Positions 13,300 through 27,648 of a stretch of 64,000 nucleotides of DNA are shown here, piece after piece (the stretch's first letter is position 1; each line of letters opens with the position of its first letter). This DNA comes from a virus. Where the stretch lies: positions 79,337-143,336 of IMG/VR virus record IMGVR_UViG_3300017917_003893; one strand, given 5' to 3'. A program made the position numbers and the translations under genes. Below the pieces are notes generated by a model. The model was not told where the DNA came from, did not search any database, and saw only the letters and a list, made by a program, of their open reading frames with translations.

Positions 13300-15507
13300 A
13301 TGAAAATTGAAAAATACTCAGATTTCAACAATCAAAATATATCCGAAGAAATAGATTGGGAAAATATAAAATATAAACTAGGTAAACTAGGATCTATTAC
13401 TAAAGGTGGTAAATTTTTTGGTAGAAAAAAACAAGATGCTAAGGCTAAAGAGGAAATTGAAGCCTTACTTAAAGATGCTAATAATAAATTTATTAGCGAT
13501 ATGGATAAAAAACTAAAAGAGGTAGCACCTGAGTTTCCAAACAATAAAAGTAGAGACCAGTTCTTAGAAGCACTTTCAATAATTTCAGCTACATATGACT
13601 CAATAATTCAAGCTTGTCATAAAACATACGAAATACACGCATACTCAAGTAGTCGTGAAGATTTAAAAGATGAAGATAATAAAGGTTTTTTGAAAACAGA
13701 TAAAGATGGTAATATAATTACCACTCTTAAACCAGGTGATGAGAATTATATGACAATTGAAATGGCTAATGCTTTAATTCAGTCATTACAAAAATATATG
13801 AAAAAACTAATAGACTATGATTTATCAACATCTTACACAGTTTTTGAAAAAAATACTATAACAGAAGAAGAAGCTGAATATTTAATTAATAAGTTAAATG
13901 AAGAGATATCATTAAATCCTTTTAATTGGTTTAAAAAGAAACAAGAATCACCTGCTCTTACTTCAGGTACTGATACGGCTACTAAAAAAATGGTACACTC
14001 TACTAAATATGAAAAGATATTTGGTGGTTTAGGTGTTGCTTTAGGTGTATTTGGTTGGGTTGTTCAAACAGAATGGTTTAGAACAATGATGGAGTCTTGG
14101 TTGAATAAACCAGAAATAACAAAAGATGTTATAAGTAAAGATATTAAAAATATAGGAATGGAAGTTAAAGATGGTGAAGGTTTAACTCAGGCACTTAACA
14201 GAACATTAGGTACAGATTTTAATAAGAATACACCCGTTTCAGAATTTGTTAGTACTCTTAGAGATAAGGGATTTGGTAATAATCCTACTGAGATATTTAA
14301 TAATTTAGGTATTGATTCTTTATCACCAAATGCTAATTTTAATGCAGATGCTGTTACAGCTTTAAGTGGTGGTGGTAATTTACAAAATGCTTTTTCAGGA
14401 ATTTTTCACGGTAGAGGTGGTACTTTATTGGCTCTTAATCCAGGGGAATTTTTAGCAAAACAAATAACAACACAAGTAACAAAGGTTGTTGTTCAACAAG
14501 CTGTTAAAGTAGGAACAACTATTGCTACTGGTTTAGCGGCAGCAGGTCCTTTTATTACTGGTTTAGGTATAGCTATGGTTGCTGGTGCTATAACATCTTG
14601 GTTGTTAAAAAGAAAGGCTAAGAAATCTTCTAGATATAAAGACTTACAAGAACTTTTAGAGAAATTCAAGCTAATTGAGTTACAACAAGGTTATAGAAAG
14701 AGTCCTATTAAATATGAAGATGGTGAAGAGTTTACACCAATTGGTAATGATGAAACTGGTGGTACTGTTGAGTCATCTGGTGTTAGTGAGAAGTCAATTT
14801 ATTCTTTAATGATTAAAAACTTAACTCAGTTAAGAAGTTTAATTAGCACTTCAGAAGGTGTTAGATTAGAAGGCGAAAAAGACTCAATTAAAGGTGCTGA
14901 ACTTGGAAAATCAAAAAGACAAAAAGAAGTATCTAAAAGAAGAGTTAATAAACCAGCACTTGCTGAAAATTTAATATTAAGATATAATGATTTGATAACT
15001 GAGGAAGATAGATTTGGTCAGCAACGTAATGTTGAGATAATGAAGACTGAAGAATATTTAACTCAAGCTTTCACTAATATTAGAAAGTCTTTAAAGTCAT
15101 TAAAAGATGAAAAAGATAAAGGTATTGGAGTTACATATGATTTCATAGGTGATATTCTTGATAAGAAAATGGATTCTGGCACAAAAGAACCAATTAAGAA
15201 CTTATATTCTGAAATATATGATTATCTATATGGTTCTAAATCTAAAACTGTAAGTGATTTAGGAGCTTTATATAAAGAAAGTGTTGAAGTTATTTCTAAT
15301 AAGGCTAAAAGACAAGTTGTTGCTGAAAAAATAGCTAGATTCTCAAAAAGATCTTTACAGTTTGAAGGTGAAGGTTTTTATGGTGGTATGGGTCAGTTTG
15401 GATCAGACTTACAGGATTTTAATAAATCACTTAAAGATATAATGAATTACTTTAAAGAAAATAGTCAAGTAAAAGAATCTAAAATACAAAGATTCAAAGA
15501 TATGTAA
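13300..15507 (+). CDS. Large putative virion protein with hydrophobic segments
   Basis: MKIEKYSDF N-terminus, internal copies of the motif, TAATATATA upstream. Confidence 0.6.
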   Translation: MKIEKYSDFNNQNISEEIDWENIKYKLGKLGSITKGGKFFGRKKQDAKAKEEIEALLKDANNKFISDMDKKLKEVAPEFPNNKSRDQFLEALSIISATYDSIIQACHKTYEIHAYSSSREDLKDEDNKGFLKTDKDGNIITTLKPGDENYMTIEMANALIQSLQKYMKKLIDYDLSTSYTVFEKNTITEEEAEYLINKLNEEISLNPFNWFKKKQESPALTSGTDTATKKMVHSTKYEKIFGGLGVALGVFGWVVQTEWFRTMMESWLNKPEITKDVISKDIKNIGMEVKDGEGLTQALNRTLGTDFNKNTPVSEFVSTLRDKGFGNNPTEIFNNLGIDSLSPNANFNADAVTALSGGGNLQNAFSGIFHGRGGTLLALNPGEFLAKQITTQVTKVVVQQAVKVGTTIATGLAAAGPFITGLGIAMVAGAITSWLLKRKAKKSSRYKDLQELLEKFKLIELQQGYRKSPIKYEDGEEFTPIGNDETGGTVESSGVSEKSIYSLMIKNLTQLRSLISTSEGVRLEGEKDSIKGAELGKSKRQKEVSKRRVNKPALAENLILRYNDLITEEDRFGQQRNVEIMKTEEYLTQAFTNIRKSLKSLKDEKDKGIGVTYDFIGDILDKKMDSGTKEPIKNLYSEIYDYLYGSKSKTVSDLGALYKESVEVISNKAKRQVVAEKIARFSKRSLQFEGEGFYGGMGQFGSDLQDFNKSLKDIMNYFKENSQVKESKIQRFKDM

Positions 15508-24772: not shown

Positions 24773-25417
24773 ATGAATAAAATTGAAATAGAAGGTAAAT
24801 TAAATAAATCTTGGGTTAATAGTCTATTAGCTGAGGGTTATACAACATATGATATTGTATCAAACTATGAAATAGATGAAGATGTTATTTTAGAGTGTTA
24901 TGAGTTTTTAGATAAAAATGTAATAATACAAGGTCTTAATTTATCAGAAGATTTTATAAACAAGTCTATTGAAATACAATATTTAGACTTAGAAGATATA
25001 AAGGAACTAAGTATGTCTACTTATGCTAATTTGTCTCCGGAATTTATATCTAAATATAAAGAGTATATCAACTGGAATAGAATGATTCTCTACATTTCAA
25101 CTCAGTCAAATTCATTTGATGAATATGTTGAGGTTATTAATGATAAAGACTTATGGCAAGTTATTAGTGCTAATGATTTACCATTAGAGTTTATAAGAGA
25201 ATATAAAGATAAATTAGATTGGTCTTATTTATCAATGGTTAAGTGTTTTACAGATGAGGAAAAAGAAGAGTTTGGTGATTATATTCTTACACCTGTACAA
25301 AAAGAAATAAGCGATGAGTCATTTATTAATCAAGATGATTTAAAATTCTCAGATAAGATGACTGATGAAGAGTTAGAAGATTTAATTAATGAAATCTCAA
25401 AACATATAGGAAAGTAA
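24773..25417 (+). CDS. Hypothetical protein with Trp-containing repeats (LSxEFIxxYKDxxxW)
   Basis: LSPEFISKYKEYINW and LPLEFIREYKDKLDW. Confidence 0.65.
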   Translation: MNKIEIEGKLNKSWVNSLLAEGYTTYDIVSNYEIDEDVILECYEFLDKNVIIQGLNLSEDFINKSIEIQYLDLEDIKELSMSTYANLSPEFISKYKEYINWNRMILYISTQSNSFDEYVEVINDKDLWQVISANDLPLEFIREYKDKLDWSYLSMVKCFTDEEKEEFGDYILTPVQKEISDESFINQDDLKFSDKMTDEELEDLINEISKHIGK

Positions 25418-25418
25418 A

Positions 25419-25577
25419 ATGTCAAATTATCAATTAAAAATTTTAGAAAAGTTAGATGATGAGGATTGGAATTATCCAAGCGTGGTAAAGGTTGTAATGA
25501 AACCTAAATCTGCTATAAACAATCCACCTTTGAAAAAAACGAAATTTTCGAGGTTGATATATACTGAACAAAAATAA
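25419..25577 (+). CDS. Possible small protein (52 aa)
   Basis: ATG 1 nt after upstream stop; MSNYQLKILEKLDDEDW... Confidence 0.35.
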   Translation: MSNYQLKILEKLDDEDWNYPSVVKVVMKPKSAINNPPLKKTKFSRLIYTEQK

Positions 25578-25613
25578 TTAAAAATATTTTTTACAAGATT
25601 TAAAACTTTTTCA

Positions 25614-25621
25614 TATCTTTG
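25614..25621 (+). promoter_or_regulatory. TAnnTTTG promoter driving the ncRNA/Ro60 locus
   Basis: TATCTTTG ~27 nt upstream of the first structured RNA. Confidence 0.65.
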
Positions 25622-25647
25622 TATAAAATAAAAACAAATAAAAAAAC

Positions 25648-25712
25648 CCAGTAGCGAATTGAAGTGTTACTTCGTATGGATTGAAAAAACACACTTTAAT
25701 GATTTACTCTGG
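25648..25712 (+). ncRNA. Y-RNA-like ncRNA 1 (minimal putative Ro60-binding module)
   Basis: ccag/ctgg stem; TAGCGA/GATTTACT internal loop; 10-bp attgaagtgt/acactttaat stem; TACTTCG; same architecture as the next element; upstream of Ro60. Confidence 0.75.
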
Positions 25713-25730
25713 TCAATATATAGGCTAAAC

Positions 25731-25996
25731 CGCAAGCATAGCGATAGTTTGAGATACTTCGATAAATATCAATTAAACTATGACAGCCAAAGTGCCGAGC
25801 TAACAGCAAAGCTACCTTTCAATCTCCAATTGGCTGATTGATAAAAAGGTGAAAAAGTTCGAAAAGTACCTCGTAAAGGGCTAAGGAATTCAGAAACTTC
25901 CTTTAAATAAAGAACTGAGTGAGATAGTCACTTCAACCATCGGCAAAGTTTCGGGAGAATTCTTTGTAACGCTTAGGCTAAATTTTCTTGCTTGCG
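25731..25996 (+). ncRNA. Y-RNA-like ncRNA 2 (same module plus ~210-nt structured domain)
   Basis: cgcaagca/tgcttgcg stem; TAGCGA/AATTTTCT loop; tagtttgag/cttaggcta stem; TACTTCG; many internal helices. Confidence 0.8.
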
Positions 25997-26008
25997 ATTA
26001 ACATATAT

Positions 26009-26048
26009 GACCAGATTAACTTTACTGTTAGTCTGGTCTTTTTTTTTT
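26009..26048 (+). terminator. Strong intrinsic terminator (possible attenuator) between the ncRNAs and Ro60
   Basis: gaccagattaac-tttact-gttagtctggtc followed by T10. Confidence 0.85.
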
Positions 26049-26058
26049 GAACAAACTC

Positions 26059-26129
26059 GGACAAGCTCGTGTATCTCGAAAGAGTGAACGGTTTCTAGAG
26101 CCAAGGTGGTATCCCACGAGCCTCTGTCC
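26059..26129 (+). ncRNA. Structured RNA element in the Ro60 leader
   Basis: ggaca/tgtcc and gctcgtg/cacgagc stems enclosing ctc-GAAA-gag and ggttt/gagcc hairpins; GC-rich in AT-rich background. Confidence 0.55.
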
Positions 26130-26164
26130 CTTAAATAGAAATTAATAAAAATTAAAACGATATT

Positions 26165-27616
26165 ATGTCAAAATTTAACACAACAATGCCAAAGGCAAAA
26201 ACTCTTACTGAAAACCTAGCAGGTGGTCAAGCTTACTCTCAATCAAATGAGTTAGCTTTAGTTTCTCTTCTTTTAACATCTTTTGTTAATGATCAGTTCT
26301 ATAGGAATGCTCAAACGACTCTTGATGAATTGAGAAGCCTTATCACTAAGGTTAAAGATAAAGAATTTGTTGCTAAGGCGGCTATATTTGCTCGTGACCG
26401 TTTTGGTATGAGAAGTATTACTCATGCTCTTGCTGGTGAATTAACTTCACAACTATCGGGTGCGGAGTGGGGTAAAAACTTCTACGACAAAGTAGTTGTT
26501 CGTGTTGATGATATGACTGAAATCATGTCATACTACTTGGCTTATAAGACATCTAAAGATAGTCCTAAGTTTCCAAACTCTTTGAAGAAGGGTTTTGCTA
26601 AGGCTTTTGATAAGTTTGATGGTTATCAACTTGCTAAGTACAAAGGTGATAACAAAGAAGTTAAACTTGTTGACCTTGTTAACATTGTTCACCCAGTTCC
26701 AACTGAAAGAAACAAATCTGCTCTTGAGTCACTTGTTAAAGGTGAACTAAAGAACACTCAAACTTGGGAAGCTAAACTTTCACAAGCAGGGCAAATGGCT
26801 GAATCTGAAGAAGATTTGGCTCAACTGAAGGCTGATGCTTGGCAAGAACTTATCTCTACAAGAAAGATTGGTTACTTTGCTCTTCTTAGAAACTTGAGAA
26901 ATATCATCACTCAATCACCATCTGCTGTTAAGTCAGCATGTGAGTTGTTAGTTGATGAGAGAATGATTAAGAATTCAAGAGTTCTTCCATTCCGTTTCTC
27001 AACTGCATATGAAGAAATCTCTAAGTTAGGTTCTTCTAAAGAAGTTCGTGATGTTCTTGTTGCTATTAACCAAGCATTGGATATCTCAGTATGTAACGTT
27101 CCTAAGTTTGACGGTGAAACACTTGTTGTTATGGACGTTTCTGGTTCAATGAGTGGTAAACCATCTGAGATTGCTTCTTTGTTTGGTGCTATTTTAGCTA
27201 AAGTTAATAACTGTGATGTTATGACTTTCTCTACTGATGCTCAATATAAGCAATACAATCCAATGGATTCAGTGTTGACTATTAGAGGTTCTTTTAGATA
27301 CTCTGGTGGTGGTACAAACTTTAAGTCTATCTTTCAGAAGGCTAACAAAAAGTATGACAGAGTAATTATCTTGTCAGATATGCAAGGTTGGATGGGGTAC
27401 ACTACACCATCTTCTGAGTTTGCTCAGTACAAAAAGAAATACAATGCTAATCCATTTGTATATTCTTGGGACCTTGCTGGATTGGGTACTTTACAGTTCC
27501 CAGAACAAAATGTCTTTGCTTTGGCTGGCTTCAGTGATAAAGTATTTGACATCATGAAAATGATGGAGTTAGACAAGAAGGCTCTTTACAATGAGATTAA
27601 AGCTATACAGCTTTAA
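26165..27616 (+). CDS. Ro60/Rsr-like TROVE + vWA RNA-binding protein
   Basis: NLAGGQAY, YQLAKY, TWE, ALLRNLRNI, SRVLPFRF; MIDAS DVSGSM; GGT; ILSDMQ. Confidence 0.93.
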   Translation: MSKFNTTMPKAKTLTENLAGGQAYSQSNELALVSLLLTSFVNDQFYRNAQTTLDELRSLITKVKDKEFVAKAAIFARDRFGMRSITHALAGELTSQLSGAEWGKNFYDKVVVRVDDMTEIMSYYLAYKTSKDSPKFPNSLKKGFAKAFDKFDGYQLAKYKGDNKEVKLVDLVNIVHPVPTERNKSALESLVKGELKNTQTWEAKLSQAGQMAESEEDLAQLKADAWQELISTRKIGYFALLRNLRNIITQSPSAVKSACELLVDERMIKNSRVLPFRFSTAYEEISKLGSSKEVRDVLVAINQALDISVCNVPKFDGETLVVMDVSGSMSGKPSEIASLFGAILAKVNNCDVMTFSTDAQYKQYNPMDSVLTIRGSFRYSGGGTNFKSIFQKANKKYDRVIILSDMQGWMGYTTPSSEFAQYKKKYNANPFVYSWDLAGLGTLQFPEQNVFALAGFSDKVFDIMKMMELDKKALYNEIKAIQL

Positions 27617-27618
27617 TT

Positions 27619-27648
27619 AAAAAACCCACTTAATGAGTGGGTTTTTTT
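27619..27648. terminator. Bidirectional intrinsic terminator
   Basis: aaaacccact-taatg-agtgggtttt. Confidence 0.8.

What the first reader, a model, noticed from the sequence alone, without database searches (positions are those of the whole stretch)
25648..27616. Phage-encoded Ro60 with two covarying Y-RNA-like ncRNAs sharing one module
Seen: both 25648-25712 and 25731-25996 read stem1-TAGCGA-(10 nt)-TACTTCG-variable-AAC-(10 nt)-RATTTWCT-stem1'. Loop motifs and spacings are identical, while the stems differ completely yet still pair (ccag/ctgg vs cgcaagca/tgcttgcg; attgaagtgt/acactttaat vs tagtttgag/cttaggcta). A host-type promoter precedes RNA1, a late-type AATATATA (25715-25722) precedes RNA2, and a terminator follows. 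Known: bacterial Ro60 genes sit beside Y RNAs built of a Ro-binding terminal stem plus an effector domain. Inference: a phage Ro60 RNP system whose RNAs lack the tRNA-like YrlA module, possibly for RNA quality control or counter-defence.
Basis: partly seen in the sequence, partly recalled or inferred. Interest (0 to 1): 0.9.

Follow-up and report, generated by a model that had tools for sequence, protein, structure and literature searches.

The report
Phage Ro60 with two Y-like RNAs
A very large phage encodes the ring-shaped RNA-binding protein Ro60 and, just upstream, two folded non-coding RNAs that share one conserved "handle"; this is a new variant of the known Ro60/Y-RNA particle, in which one RNA carries a roughly 200-base folded domain where its relatives carry a tRNA look-alike.

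Summary
RNA1 (25648-25712) and RNA2 (25731-25996) share a handle. It consists of a terminal stem, a bulged U, 2 bp, an asymmetric loop, a second stem and the motif UACUUCG. The signature occurs twice in 64 kb against 0.00 expected by chance.

In about 40 related viral contigs both RNAs lie upstream of Ro60, and the helices covary (97-99% of cells paired). The window's RNAs have no Rfam match.

In more distant phages, including crAss-like ones, the same handle carries tRNA-like inserts. Some of these inserts match Rfam YrlA weakly, and some contain whole tRNA cloverleaves. The family is therefore a YrlA-type Y-RNA scaffold with exchangeable cargo.

- RNA1 is the minimal form.
- RNA2 carries a conserved, probably pseudoknotted cargo of about 205 nt that is not tRNA-like.
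- The protein is a true TROVE+vWA Ro60. Its closest solved relative is Thermus phage phiLo Ro60, which binds two upstream Y-like RNAs.

No test here addresses binding, transcript ends or function. First readers of this scan noted the same locus type in a few other genomes, and follow-up agents reported other handles beside Ro60-like genes. My verdict is a new variant of a known kind, of moderate to high interest.

The parts
25507..25570 (+). Conserved intergenic-type box (..TATAAACAATCCACC..GAAATTTT..GGTTGATATATAC) upstream of the RNA unit. It overlaps the end of a doubtful 52-aa ORF.
   Evidence: The same box follows a terminator and precedes the RNAs in L001, L022, L024, L038 and L039. In L001 and L008 it sits directly in front of RNA1. 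Its role as a promoter is inferred only.
25601..25630 (+). Conserved bipartite A/T-rich element (TAAAACTTTTT, about 11 nt, then TATAAAA) some 20-45 nt upstream of RNA1. It is a candidate promoter for the RNA unit.
   Evidence: It is present at constant spacing in most related loci and occurs only once in the window. Function is inferred.
25648..25712 (+). RNA1, a minimal Y-like RNA of 65 nt consisting of the handle plus a 16-nt apical part.
   Evidence: Covariance model R1 scores 88 bits on the window's own RNA1, which is in the model's training set and so matches by construction. Outside the training set it scores 30-85 bits upstream of Ro60 in all 20 further loci that hold upstream DNA. 98.6% of cells are paired, and 7 of 10 stem-2 pairs covary.
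25713..25730 (+). Spacer 1 with an A/T box (AATATATA at 25715-22).
   Evidence: A similar box (ATTATATA-like) follows RNA1 and also follows RNA2 in most loci. Whether it is a promoter or a processing site is unresolved.
25731..25996 (+). RNA2, a 266-nt Y-like RNA with the same handle enclosing a cargo domain of about 205 nt.
   Evidence: The handle is 96.8% paired in 31 distinct sequences. Stem 1 takes at least four unrelated sequences, and stem 2 shows compensatory changes.
25762..25967 (+). Cargo domain of RNA2. It holds hairpins at 25883-88/25898-903, 25918-22/25928-32 and 25943-48/25962-67. A long-range (pseudoknot-type) pairing joins 25802-04 (AAC) to 25857-59 (GUU).
   Evidence: RNAalifold on 11 relatives. 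The long-range pairing covaries across groups: AAC/GUU, GAC/GUC, GACU/AGUC, AUCC/GGAU, AUCU/AGAU, NGUC/GACN'. There is no Rfam match.
26009..26048 (+). Intrinsic terminator: a 12-bp stem (GACCAGAUUAAC / GUUAGUCUGGUC) followed by T10.
   Evidence: It is conserved in sequence in nearly all related loci. Its stem resembles RNA1's CCAG/CUGG stem.
26059..26129 (+). G+C-rich structured element of 71 nt (a closing stem and three small hairpins, one capped by GAAA) between the terminator and the Ro60 start codon.
   Evidence: alone z -1.7. It is absent from LR745206 and from all but a few related loci. It shares a 20-nt stretch with an element in L036, L172 and L176. Its role is unknown.
26165..27616 (+). 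Ro60 gene (483 aa) with a TROVE HEAT-repeat ring and a vWA domain carrying a DxSxS (MIDAS-type) motif.
   Evidence: Pfam TROVE E 7e-19, with weaker sub-threshold vWA_Ro60 and VWA_CoxE hits. Full-length match to Thermus phage phiLo Ro60 (9KOP/9L5Y), E 5e-22, and to Xenopus and human Ro60.
27619..27647 (+). Terminator after Ro60.

Best explanation
RNA1 and RNA2 are phage-encoded Y RNAs, the dedicated non-coding partners of the adjacent Ro60 protein.

They share a YrlA-type handle: a terminal stem, a bulged U, two base pairs, an asymmetric internal loop, a second stem and the junction motif (U/A)UACUUCG...RAC. This handle is most likely the Ro60-binding platform. Whatever is plugged into its apex is the effector part.

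In related phages the cargo is a permuted tRNA mimic, as in YrlA, or a whole tRNA cloverleaf. In this clade of huge phages one copy (RNA1) has almost no cargo, like YrlB. The other (RNA2) carries a conserved, probably pseudoknotted domain of about 205 nt.

The likely course of events is as follows.
1. RNA1 and RNA2 are transcribed as one unit that ends at the terminator.
2. Read-through supplies the Ro60 mRNA.
3. The RNAs are cut apart and bind the outer rim of the Ro60 ring through the handle.
4. The RNA2 cargo then recruits or gates a partner, by analogy an exoribonuclease such as host PNPase. RNA1 acts as a cargo-less regulator.

What is shown: the RNAs exist as conserved structures, they share one handle, the handle tracks the Ro60 gene, and it is homologous in layout to tRNA-bearing Y RNAs.

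What is inferred: binding, co-transcription and processing, and the effector role.
For: (1) Structure is under selection. RNA1 is 98.6% paired with 8 of 14 pairs changed on both sides. The RNA2 handle is 96.8% paired with 10 of 18 pairs changed on both sides. The whole unit folds with z -4.1.

(2) Linkage to Ro60.
- Outside its training set, model R1 finds RNA1 upstream of Ro60 in all 20 further Ro60-selected loci that hold upstream DNA, and beside Ro60 in L107/L157, L043/L159, L190 and L195.
- A motif scan made independently of Ro60 found 32 matches with Ro60 385-530 nt downstream. The matches without Ro60 almost all failed the model, so they are chance matches.
- Ro60 is the only neighbour present in all 48 handle-bearing loci. 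Most of these loci were selected through Ro60, so the informative contrast is that the other neighbouring genes occur in only 5-26 of 48.

(3) Homology to known Y RNAs. In L035, L115, L146, L095 and phage csAssE-Sib the same handle encloses a T-arm, a closed acceptor-like hairpin and a D-arm. These give Rfam YrlA hits of 30-34 bits, E 6e-4 to 4e-3.
- The layout matches the Rfam YrlA consensus: stem, a 5-6 nt / 8 nt loop, stem, then YUAY (PMC4201824 section 6).

(4) The protein is a real Ro60. Its closest solved relative, phiLo Ro60, binds two Y-like RNAs encoded just upstream (PMC12135203).

(5) A bulged helix is the Ro60 recognition feature of animal Y RNAs (PMC12135203, introduction).
Against:
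- The published bacterial motif GNCGAAN0-1G is not conserved. The window's RNA1 has GCGAA, but the family consensus is URGYRA.
- Rfam YrlA does not match the window, and it matches relatives only below its gathering score.
- One 32.8-kb record (L071) has RNA1 plus the terminator but neither RNA2 nor any Ro60.
- The cargo's partner is unknown, and no PNPase, RtcB or other RNA-repair gene lies nearby.
Confidence: 0.75

Rival explanations
1. The two structures are mainly a cis-acting leader that autoregulates Ro60. The 3' arm of RNA1 (UCUGGUC) can pair with the 5' arm of the terminator (GACCAGA) and so prevent termination. Ro60 bound to the handle would hold that arm in place, let the terminator form and shut off its own read-through mRNA.
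For: - A strong terminator lies between the RNAs and the ATG, and the short A/T gap in relatives shows no evident promoter.
- The RNA1 3' arm and the terminator 5' arm are complementary over 7-10 nt in nearly all loci.
- In L015/L019 both changed together (CUCUGAUUAC / GUAAUCAGAG).
- In the window, L037/L039 and L030 the complementarity extends into flanking bases that neither hairpin needs.
Against: - Most of the complementarity follows trivially from two hairpins that share a CCAG/CUGG core.
- L030 and L037 changed RNA1's stem without changing the terminator.
- The two arms lie about 300 nt apart with a stable RNA2 between them, and the minimum-energy fold keeps three separate domains.
- In distant phages the handle occurs in arrays of three, downstream of Ro60 (L043), or 670 nt upstream with a gene in between (cr111_1). 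That fits trans-acting RNAs.
- This model is compatible with, and not exclusive of, the Y-RNA reading.
Confidence: 0.12
2. The handle is a scaffold for making or presenting tRNA-type cargo, recognised by some other factor such as a processing nuclease or a tRNA-modifying or repair enzyme. Ro60 is merely a pathway neighbour. On this view RNA1 and RNA2 are decayed or re-used cassettes.
For: In csAssE-Sib, L115 and cr111_1 the handles enclose complete cloverleaves. These score 53-57 bits on the Rfam tRNA model, or are annotated tRNA-Tyr, tRNA-Lys and tRNA-Gln. L071 keeps RNA1 without Ro60.
Against: - RNA1 and RNA2 have no tRNA part, yet they keep the handle under strong purifying and compensatory selection.
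- No other gene co-occurs with the handle.
- Known Y RNAs (Yrn1, YrlA) also carry tRNA-like domains in either topology while binding Ro60 (PMC4201824).
Confidence: 0.1
3. The region is ordinary intergenic DNA, or a small ORF (25659-25841), and the shared motifs are chance or a recent duplication with no RNA function.
For: A 60-aa TTG-initiated ORF spans RNA1 and the start of RNA2.
Against: - The signature is expected 0.00 times by chance.
- Compensatory changes occur in both helices across 15 and 31 distinct sequences.
- RNA2 length varies from 214 to 320 nt with indels that are not multiples of three.
Confidence: 0.01

Closest known systems
YrlA / YrlB Y RNAs with Rsr (bacterial Ro60) in Salmonella, other bacteria and mycobacteriophages (Rfam RF02553; Chen et al. 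2014, PMC4201824)
   Same: - Encoded next to Ro60 on the same strand, often two per locus, one long and one short.
- The 5' and 3' ends form a stem, an asymmetric internal loop (5-6 nt / 8 nt) and a second stem, followed by YUAY.
- In relatives of this phage the same handle carries the T-arm, closed acceptor-like hairpin and D-arm module that defines YrlA.
   Different: - The window's RNAs have no tRNA-like domain and no RF02553 match.
- The GNCGAAN0-1G motif is replaced by URGYRA at a different place in the handle.
- There is an invariant UACUUCG junction.
- RNA2 carries a pseudoknot-type cargo of about 205 nt and is 266 nt long, against the 80-130 nt usual for Y RNAs.
Thermus phage phiLo Ro60 with Yrl1 and Yrl2 (PMC12135203; PDB 9KOP, 9L5Y)
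   Same: - A phage Ro60 with two Y-like RNAs directly upstream.
- The protein is the closest solved relative of the window's Ro60 (E 5e-22 over the full length).
- The RNA design is stem, bulge or internal loop, then stem.
   Different: - The proteins are only distantly related in sequence (best local identities to any phage Ro60 outside its own clade were about 30%).
- Yrl1 and Yrl2 were picked by their CGAA motif and are short.
- No large cargo domain is described there.
- Binding is shown there and not here.
Deinococcus radiodurans Yrn1 - Rsr - PNPase (RYPER) complex
   Same: The functional model is the same: a Y RNA handle on Ro60 and an effector domain that tethers an exoribonuclease. In Yrn1 the tRNA-like part sits in tRNA order, as in the handle-embedded cloverleaves of csAssE-Sib and L115.
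   Different: No PNPase link has been tested, and the cargo of RNA2 is not tRNA-like.
Metazoan Y RNAs (Rfam RF00019)
   Same: A terminal helix with a single bulged pyrimidine and an opposing larger bulge or loop serves as the likely Ro60 site, beside a variable effector loop.
   Different: No sequence similarity and no Rfam hit. The biogenesis differs, with no Pol III or La, and RNA2 is far larger.

Membership tests
Ro60 / TROVE protein family | TROVE (HEAT-repeat ring) domain followed by a vWA domain with a MIDAS-type motif | tested here: met
   - Pfam TROVE E 7e-19, above its cut-off. The vWA_Ro60 and VWA_CoxE hits fall below their cut-offs.
- Residues 12-476 align with phiLo Ro60 9KOP (E 5e-22), and residues 224-470 with human and Xenopus Ro60.
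- D-V-S-G-S is invariant in the alignment.
Y RNA (functional class: Ro60-bound ncRNA) | Encoded adjacent to, and co-inherited with, a Ro60 gene | tested here: met
   There is one exception, L071.
Y RNA (functional class: Ro60-bound ncRNA) | The 5' and 3' ends pair into a long stem interrupted by a bulge or internal loop, with a variable effector loop | tested here: met
   Covariation counts. The bulged U and the AG:CU pair are supported by an AU-to-GC exchange.
Y RNA (functional class: Ro60-bound ncRNA) | Physical binding to Ro60 | not testable with these tools
   No RNA-protein modelling or read data were available.
Y RNA (functional class: Ro60-bound ncRNA) | Conserved Ro60-contact motif (GGUCCGA in animals; GNCGAAN0-1G or CGAA in bacteria and phiLo) | tested here: inconclusive
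   The window's RNA1 has GCGAA and RNA2 has GCGAU. Relatives have UGAA, UAAA, UGAU or GUCA. The consensus is URGYRA, so CGAA is not conserved.
YrlA (Rfam RF02553) | Score at or above the gathering threshold (69 bits) on the covariance model | tested here: not met
   No hit in the window or in the 143-kb record. Relatives score 30-34 bits.
YrlA (Rfam RF02553) | tRNA-like domain (T-arm, closed acceptor-like stem, D-arm) | tested here: not met
   No tRNA or YrlA match at E up to 10 in 25300-26300, and ARAGORN finds nothing there. The feature is met in the homologous handles of L035, L115, L095, L146 and csAssE-Sib.
YrlA (Rfam RF02553) | Handle layout: stem, 5-6 nt / 8 nt internal loop, stem, then YUAY before the cargo | tested here: met
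   Comparison with the RF02553 consensus printed. UUAC or AUAC is invariant in A2 and A5.

The most novel reading that the evidence does not exclude
The Y-RNA handle of Bacteroidota-type phages (huge phages and Crassvirales) is a general plug-in platform. RNA2's conserved, pseudoknotted cargo of about 205 nt would then be a new kind of Ro60 effector domain that does not mimic tRNA. It would aim the phage Ro60 at a partner or substrate different from those of all described Y RNAs. The terminator that echoes RNA1's stem may additionally make the unit self-regulating.
Probability: 0.3. Interest if true: 0.75.

Novelty: new variant of a known kind. Interest (0 to 1): 0.6.

Why it matters
Ro60/Y-RNA particles are known from animals, bacteria and a few phages. 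Every bacterial or phage Y RNA that has been described in detail uses a tRNA-like module as its working end.

Here the same conserved handle is seen with four kinds of cargo across related phages:
- almost none;
- a permuted tRNA mimic;
- a complete tRNA cloverleaf;
- a large pseudoknot-type domain.

This gives a natural series for asking what the handle does and what the cargo does. It also extends the system to huge phages and crAss-like gut phages.

The finding flags that some annotated phage tRNA genes beside Ro60 sit inside Y-RNA handles. It provides a defined 266-nt RNA and a 483-aa protein for direct binding and structural work.

Tried and rejected
- Rfam scan at permissive E-values over 25300-26300 gave only snoRNA and miRNA noise.
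- RF02553 over the whole 143-kb record gave nothing.
- RNA2 cargo as an RNase P-like RNA.
  - No RNase P model matched at E up to 10.
  - The GUC pairs with an upstream hairpin loop rather than a 3' strand, so I rejected this.
The variable hairpin carrying that loop is not conserved, for example in L020, L002 and L004, so I rejected it.
- R1 hit at 14436-14534 (minus strand, 12 bits, E 0.9). It lies antisense inside a 735-aa ORF and I take it as chance.
- The motif scan of IMG/VR for CAGTAGYRA-N10-TACTTCG gave 67 matches without Ro60. Nearly all fail the covariance model and are chance matches.
- The third element has no copy elsewhere in the record, no match in 50,697 phage records and no Rfam hit.
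  - The pattern scan returned mostly coding or chance matches.
  - Its folding energy alone is unremarkable, z -1.7.
- ACAGCAA in the RNA2 hairpin loop resembles the handle that other reports of this scan link to DUF2828-type proteins. It is not conserved among RNA2 relatives, and the record has no DUF2828 gene, although that search's control also found nothing.
- Sigma-70-type promoter scan: 5 sites against 8.7 expected.
- My own regex for a generalised promoter box was mis-specified and found nothing.
- The genome-contig scan returned one locus only, so bacterial Bacteroidota Ro60 loci could not be examined.
Full report
**Observation.**
- RNA1 spans 25648-25712 and RNA2 spans 25731-25996.
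- Both read stem 1, UAGCGA, a 9-10-nt stem-2 strand, UACUUCG, a variable part, AAC, the stem-2 partner, an 8-nt A/U-rich strand, and the stem-1 partner.
- The composite signature TAGYRA-N10-TACTTCG occurs at these two places only in the 64-kb window, against 0.00 expected in 100 shuffles.
- An intrinsic terminator (26009-26038 plus T10) follows RNA2.
- The ORF at 26165-27616 is a TROVE + vWA protein (Pfam TROVE E 7e-19).
- The record is a 143-kb fragment of a virus genome estimated at 25% complete.
- The nearest public relative is a 634,780-bp uncultured phage, LR745206, whose Ro60 is 84% identical.
- Neighbouring genes include ribonucleotide reductase, helicases, a DNA methylase and a tail-fibre-type protein.

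**Conservation and covariation.** Two Ro60-based scans of IMG/VR returned 40 related loci with 49-94% Ro60 identity.
- A covariance model built from 15 distinct RNA1 copies (R1) scores 30-85 bits upstream of Ro60 in all 20 loci outside its training set that hold upstream DNA. The window's own RNA1 scores 88 bits, but it is in the training set.
- In RNA1, 98.6% of cells are paired and 8 of 14 pairs change on both sides. Partners slid by 1-3 columns give only 24-53%.
- RNA2 is present throughout the clade, 214-320 nt long.
- RNA2's stem 1 takes unrelated sequences: GCAAGCA, GAGGACA, ACAAACA and UUAGACAAAUA.
- RNA2's stem 2 changes in a compensatory way, for example UAGUUUGAG/CUUAGGCUA to UAAAUUGAG/CUCAGUUUA or UUAAUUGAG/CUUAGUUAA.
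- On 31 distinct RNA2 sequences the handle is 96.8% paired, and 10 of 18 pairs change on both sides.

**Refined handle.** After stem 1 the U is bulged, and the next two bases (AG) pair with the last two bases of the 3' strand (CU). That pair is AU in 26 sequences and GC in 5, and it is never broken. Relatives also show AC/GU (L035). The handle is therefore stem 1, a bulged U, 2 bp, an asymmetric loop (5' YRA, 3' RAUUUW), stem 2, (U/A)UACUUCG, cargo, RAC and stem 2'.

**What the family is.** The window's RNAs match nothing in Rfam, and the whole record has no YrlA. The decisive evidence comes from more distant phages.
- L035 (Ro60 55% identical) has three handles upstream of Ro60. One is short. 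One encloses a T-arm, a closed hairpin and a D-arm in YrlA order, with an Rfam YrlA hit of 30.6 bits, E 0.0026. One encloses arms in tRNA order.
- L036 (49%) has three handles, one of them with a T-arm.
- A motif scan made independently of Ro60 added L115 (29%), L095 (38%) and L146 (36%). They again hold handle arrays next to Ro60, YrlA hits of 31-34 bits, and full cloverleaves scoring 53-57 bits on the tRNA model inside handles.
- The published crAss-like phage csAssE-Sib has the same three handles directly upstream of its annotated 'Ro sixty-related protein'. Its annotated tRNA-Tyr and tRNA-Lys lie inside two of them.
- In cr111_1 (Crassvirales), tRNA-Gln lies inside a handle, and an RNA1-like copy scores 42 bits.
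- The layout equals the Rfam YrlA consensus: stem, a 5-6/8-nt loop, stem, then YUAY before the cargo (PMC4201824).

The window's RNAs are therefore divergent members of the YrlA-type Y-RNA world. RNA1 is a minimal, YrlB-like form. RNA2 has another cargo where relatives carry a tRNA mimic.

**Linkage to Ro60.**
- Of the motif-scan matches, 32 have Ro60 385-530 nt downstream and 17 are cut off by contig ends.
- The other 67 are almost all rejected by the model, so they are chance matches at the frequency expected for a 30-bit pattern.
- Model-positive cases outside that set again sit beside Ro60: L107 upstream and L043 just downstream, and a contig labelled as a MAG, L195.
- Ro60 is the only neighbour present in all 48 handle loci. 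Most of these were selected through Ro60, so the informative point is that the other neighbouring genes occur in only 5-26 of them.
- The one exception is L071, a 32.8-kb record with terminal repeats. It has RNA1 joined directly to the terminator, without RNA2 or any Ro60.

**RNA2 cargo (25762-25967).**
- RNAalifold on 11 relatives gives three hairpins: 25883-88/25898-903, 25918-22/25928-32 and 25943-48/25962-67. In a sister group the first has AAGGAA/UUCCUU replaced by CAAGAA/UUCUUG.
- A hairpin-loop triplet (25802-04, AAC) is complementary to the bases after a conserved A-run (25857-59, GUU).
- The two sites change together across groups: GAC/GUC, GACU/AGUC, AUCC/GGAU, AUCU/AGAU, and GGUC/GACC, AGUC/GACU, UGUC/GACA. 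One mismatch occurs, in L014.
- This supports a pseudoknot-type long-range helix.
- Parts of the cargo are dispensable. L007, L008 and L022 lack one hairpin, and L001 has an extra one.
- It is not tRNA-like by ARAGORN or Rfam.

**Other features.**
- A/T boxes of similar sequence (ATTATATA-like) follow both RNA1 and RNA2. The box at 25715-22 is therefore not clearly an RNA2 promoter.
- A bipartite A/T element upstream of RNA1 is conserved at constant spacing and is unique in the window.
- The terminator stem (GACCAGA/UCUGGUC) echoes RNA1's stem and is complementary to RNA1's 3' arm. L015 changed both together, whereas L030 and L037 did not. The minimum-energy fold keeps three separate domains. 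An autoregulatory attenuator is possible but weakly supported.
- The 71-nt G+C-rich element at 26059-26129 is absent from almost all relatives and shares only a 20-nt stretch with an element in L036-type loci. I cannot assign it.

**Comparison with what is known, and verdict.**
- Phage Ro60 genes with adjacent Y RNAs were reported in 2014 (PMC4201824).
- A phage Ro60 binding two upstream Y-like RNAs and host PNPase was reported in 2025 (PMC12135203). That protein is the closest solved relative of this one.
- New here are the handle signature, its spread through huge phages and Crassvirales, the exchangeable cargo, and the large non-tRNA cargo of RNA2.
- First readers of this scan noted the same locus type in a few other genomes, and follow-up agents reported other handles beside Ro60-like genes. 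None of those notes served as evidence here.
- Binding, transcript ends and function remain untested.
- I rate this a new variant of a known kind, with interest 0.6.

Noticed in passing
L095 3190-3605 (minus strand): A GOLLD RNA (Rfam RF02032, 288 bits, E 1.6e-81) lies directly upstream of the array of Y-like handles and the Ro60 gene in this viral contig. A GIY-YIG-like ORF sits between two of the handles.
   Followed up: no
L189 (phage csAssE-Sib OR575929) 985-1420; L190 (cr111_1 MT774387) 388-514: Genes annotated tRNA-Tyr, tRNA-Lys and tRNA-Gln immediately upstream of Ro60 in crAss-like phages are embedded in the same two-stem handle as the window's RNAs. They may therefore be Y RNAs with tRNA cargo, or tRNAs made from handle-bearing precursors.
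   Followed up: partly
L071 7613-7740: A 32.8-kb viral record with direct terminal repeats carries an RNA1 copy (66 bits) fused straight to the GAUCAGA/UCUGGUC terminator. It has no RNA2 and no Ro60 anywhere in the record, so this is an orphan handle RNA.
   Followed up: partly
window 25709-25716 and 26009-26038: The terminator stem repeats RNA1's closing stem (CCAG/CUGG core), and its 5' arm is complementary to RNA1's 3' arm over 8 nt plus a further AUAUA. In L015/L019 both elements changed together.
   Followed up: partly
window 26059-26129: A 71-nt G+C-rich multi-hairpin element lies between the terminator and the Ro60 start. It is absent from the closest relative LR745206 and from almost all related loci. 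It shares GUGUAU..CUCGAAAGAG with an element in L036, L172 and L176, where the outer stem shows a compensatory change.
   Followed up: partly
window 25419-25577: The 3' third of this 52-aa ORF overlaps a conserved box that in relatives lies in intergenic DNA after a terminator, so the ORF may not be a gene.
   Followed up: no
L030 about 2290-2490 and L041 about 2290-2480: In two related loci a small ORF (starting MKKIEALNYL... / MNKLEALNYI...) is inserted between the terminator and Ro60.
   Followed up: no
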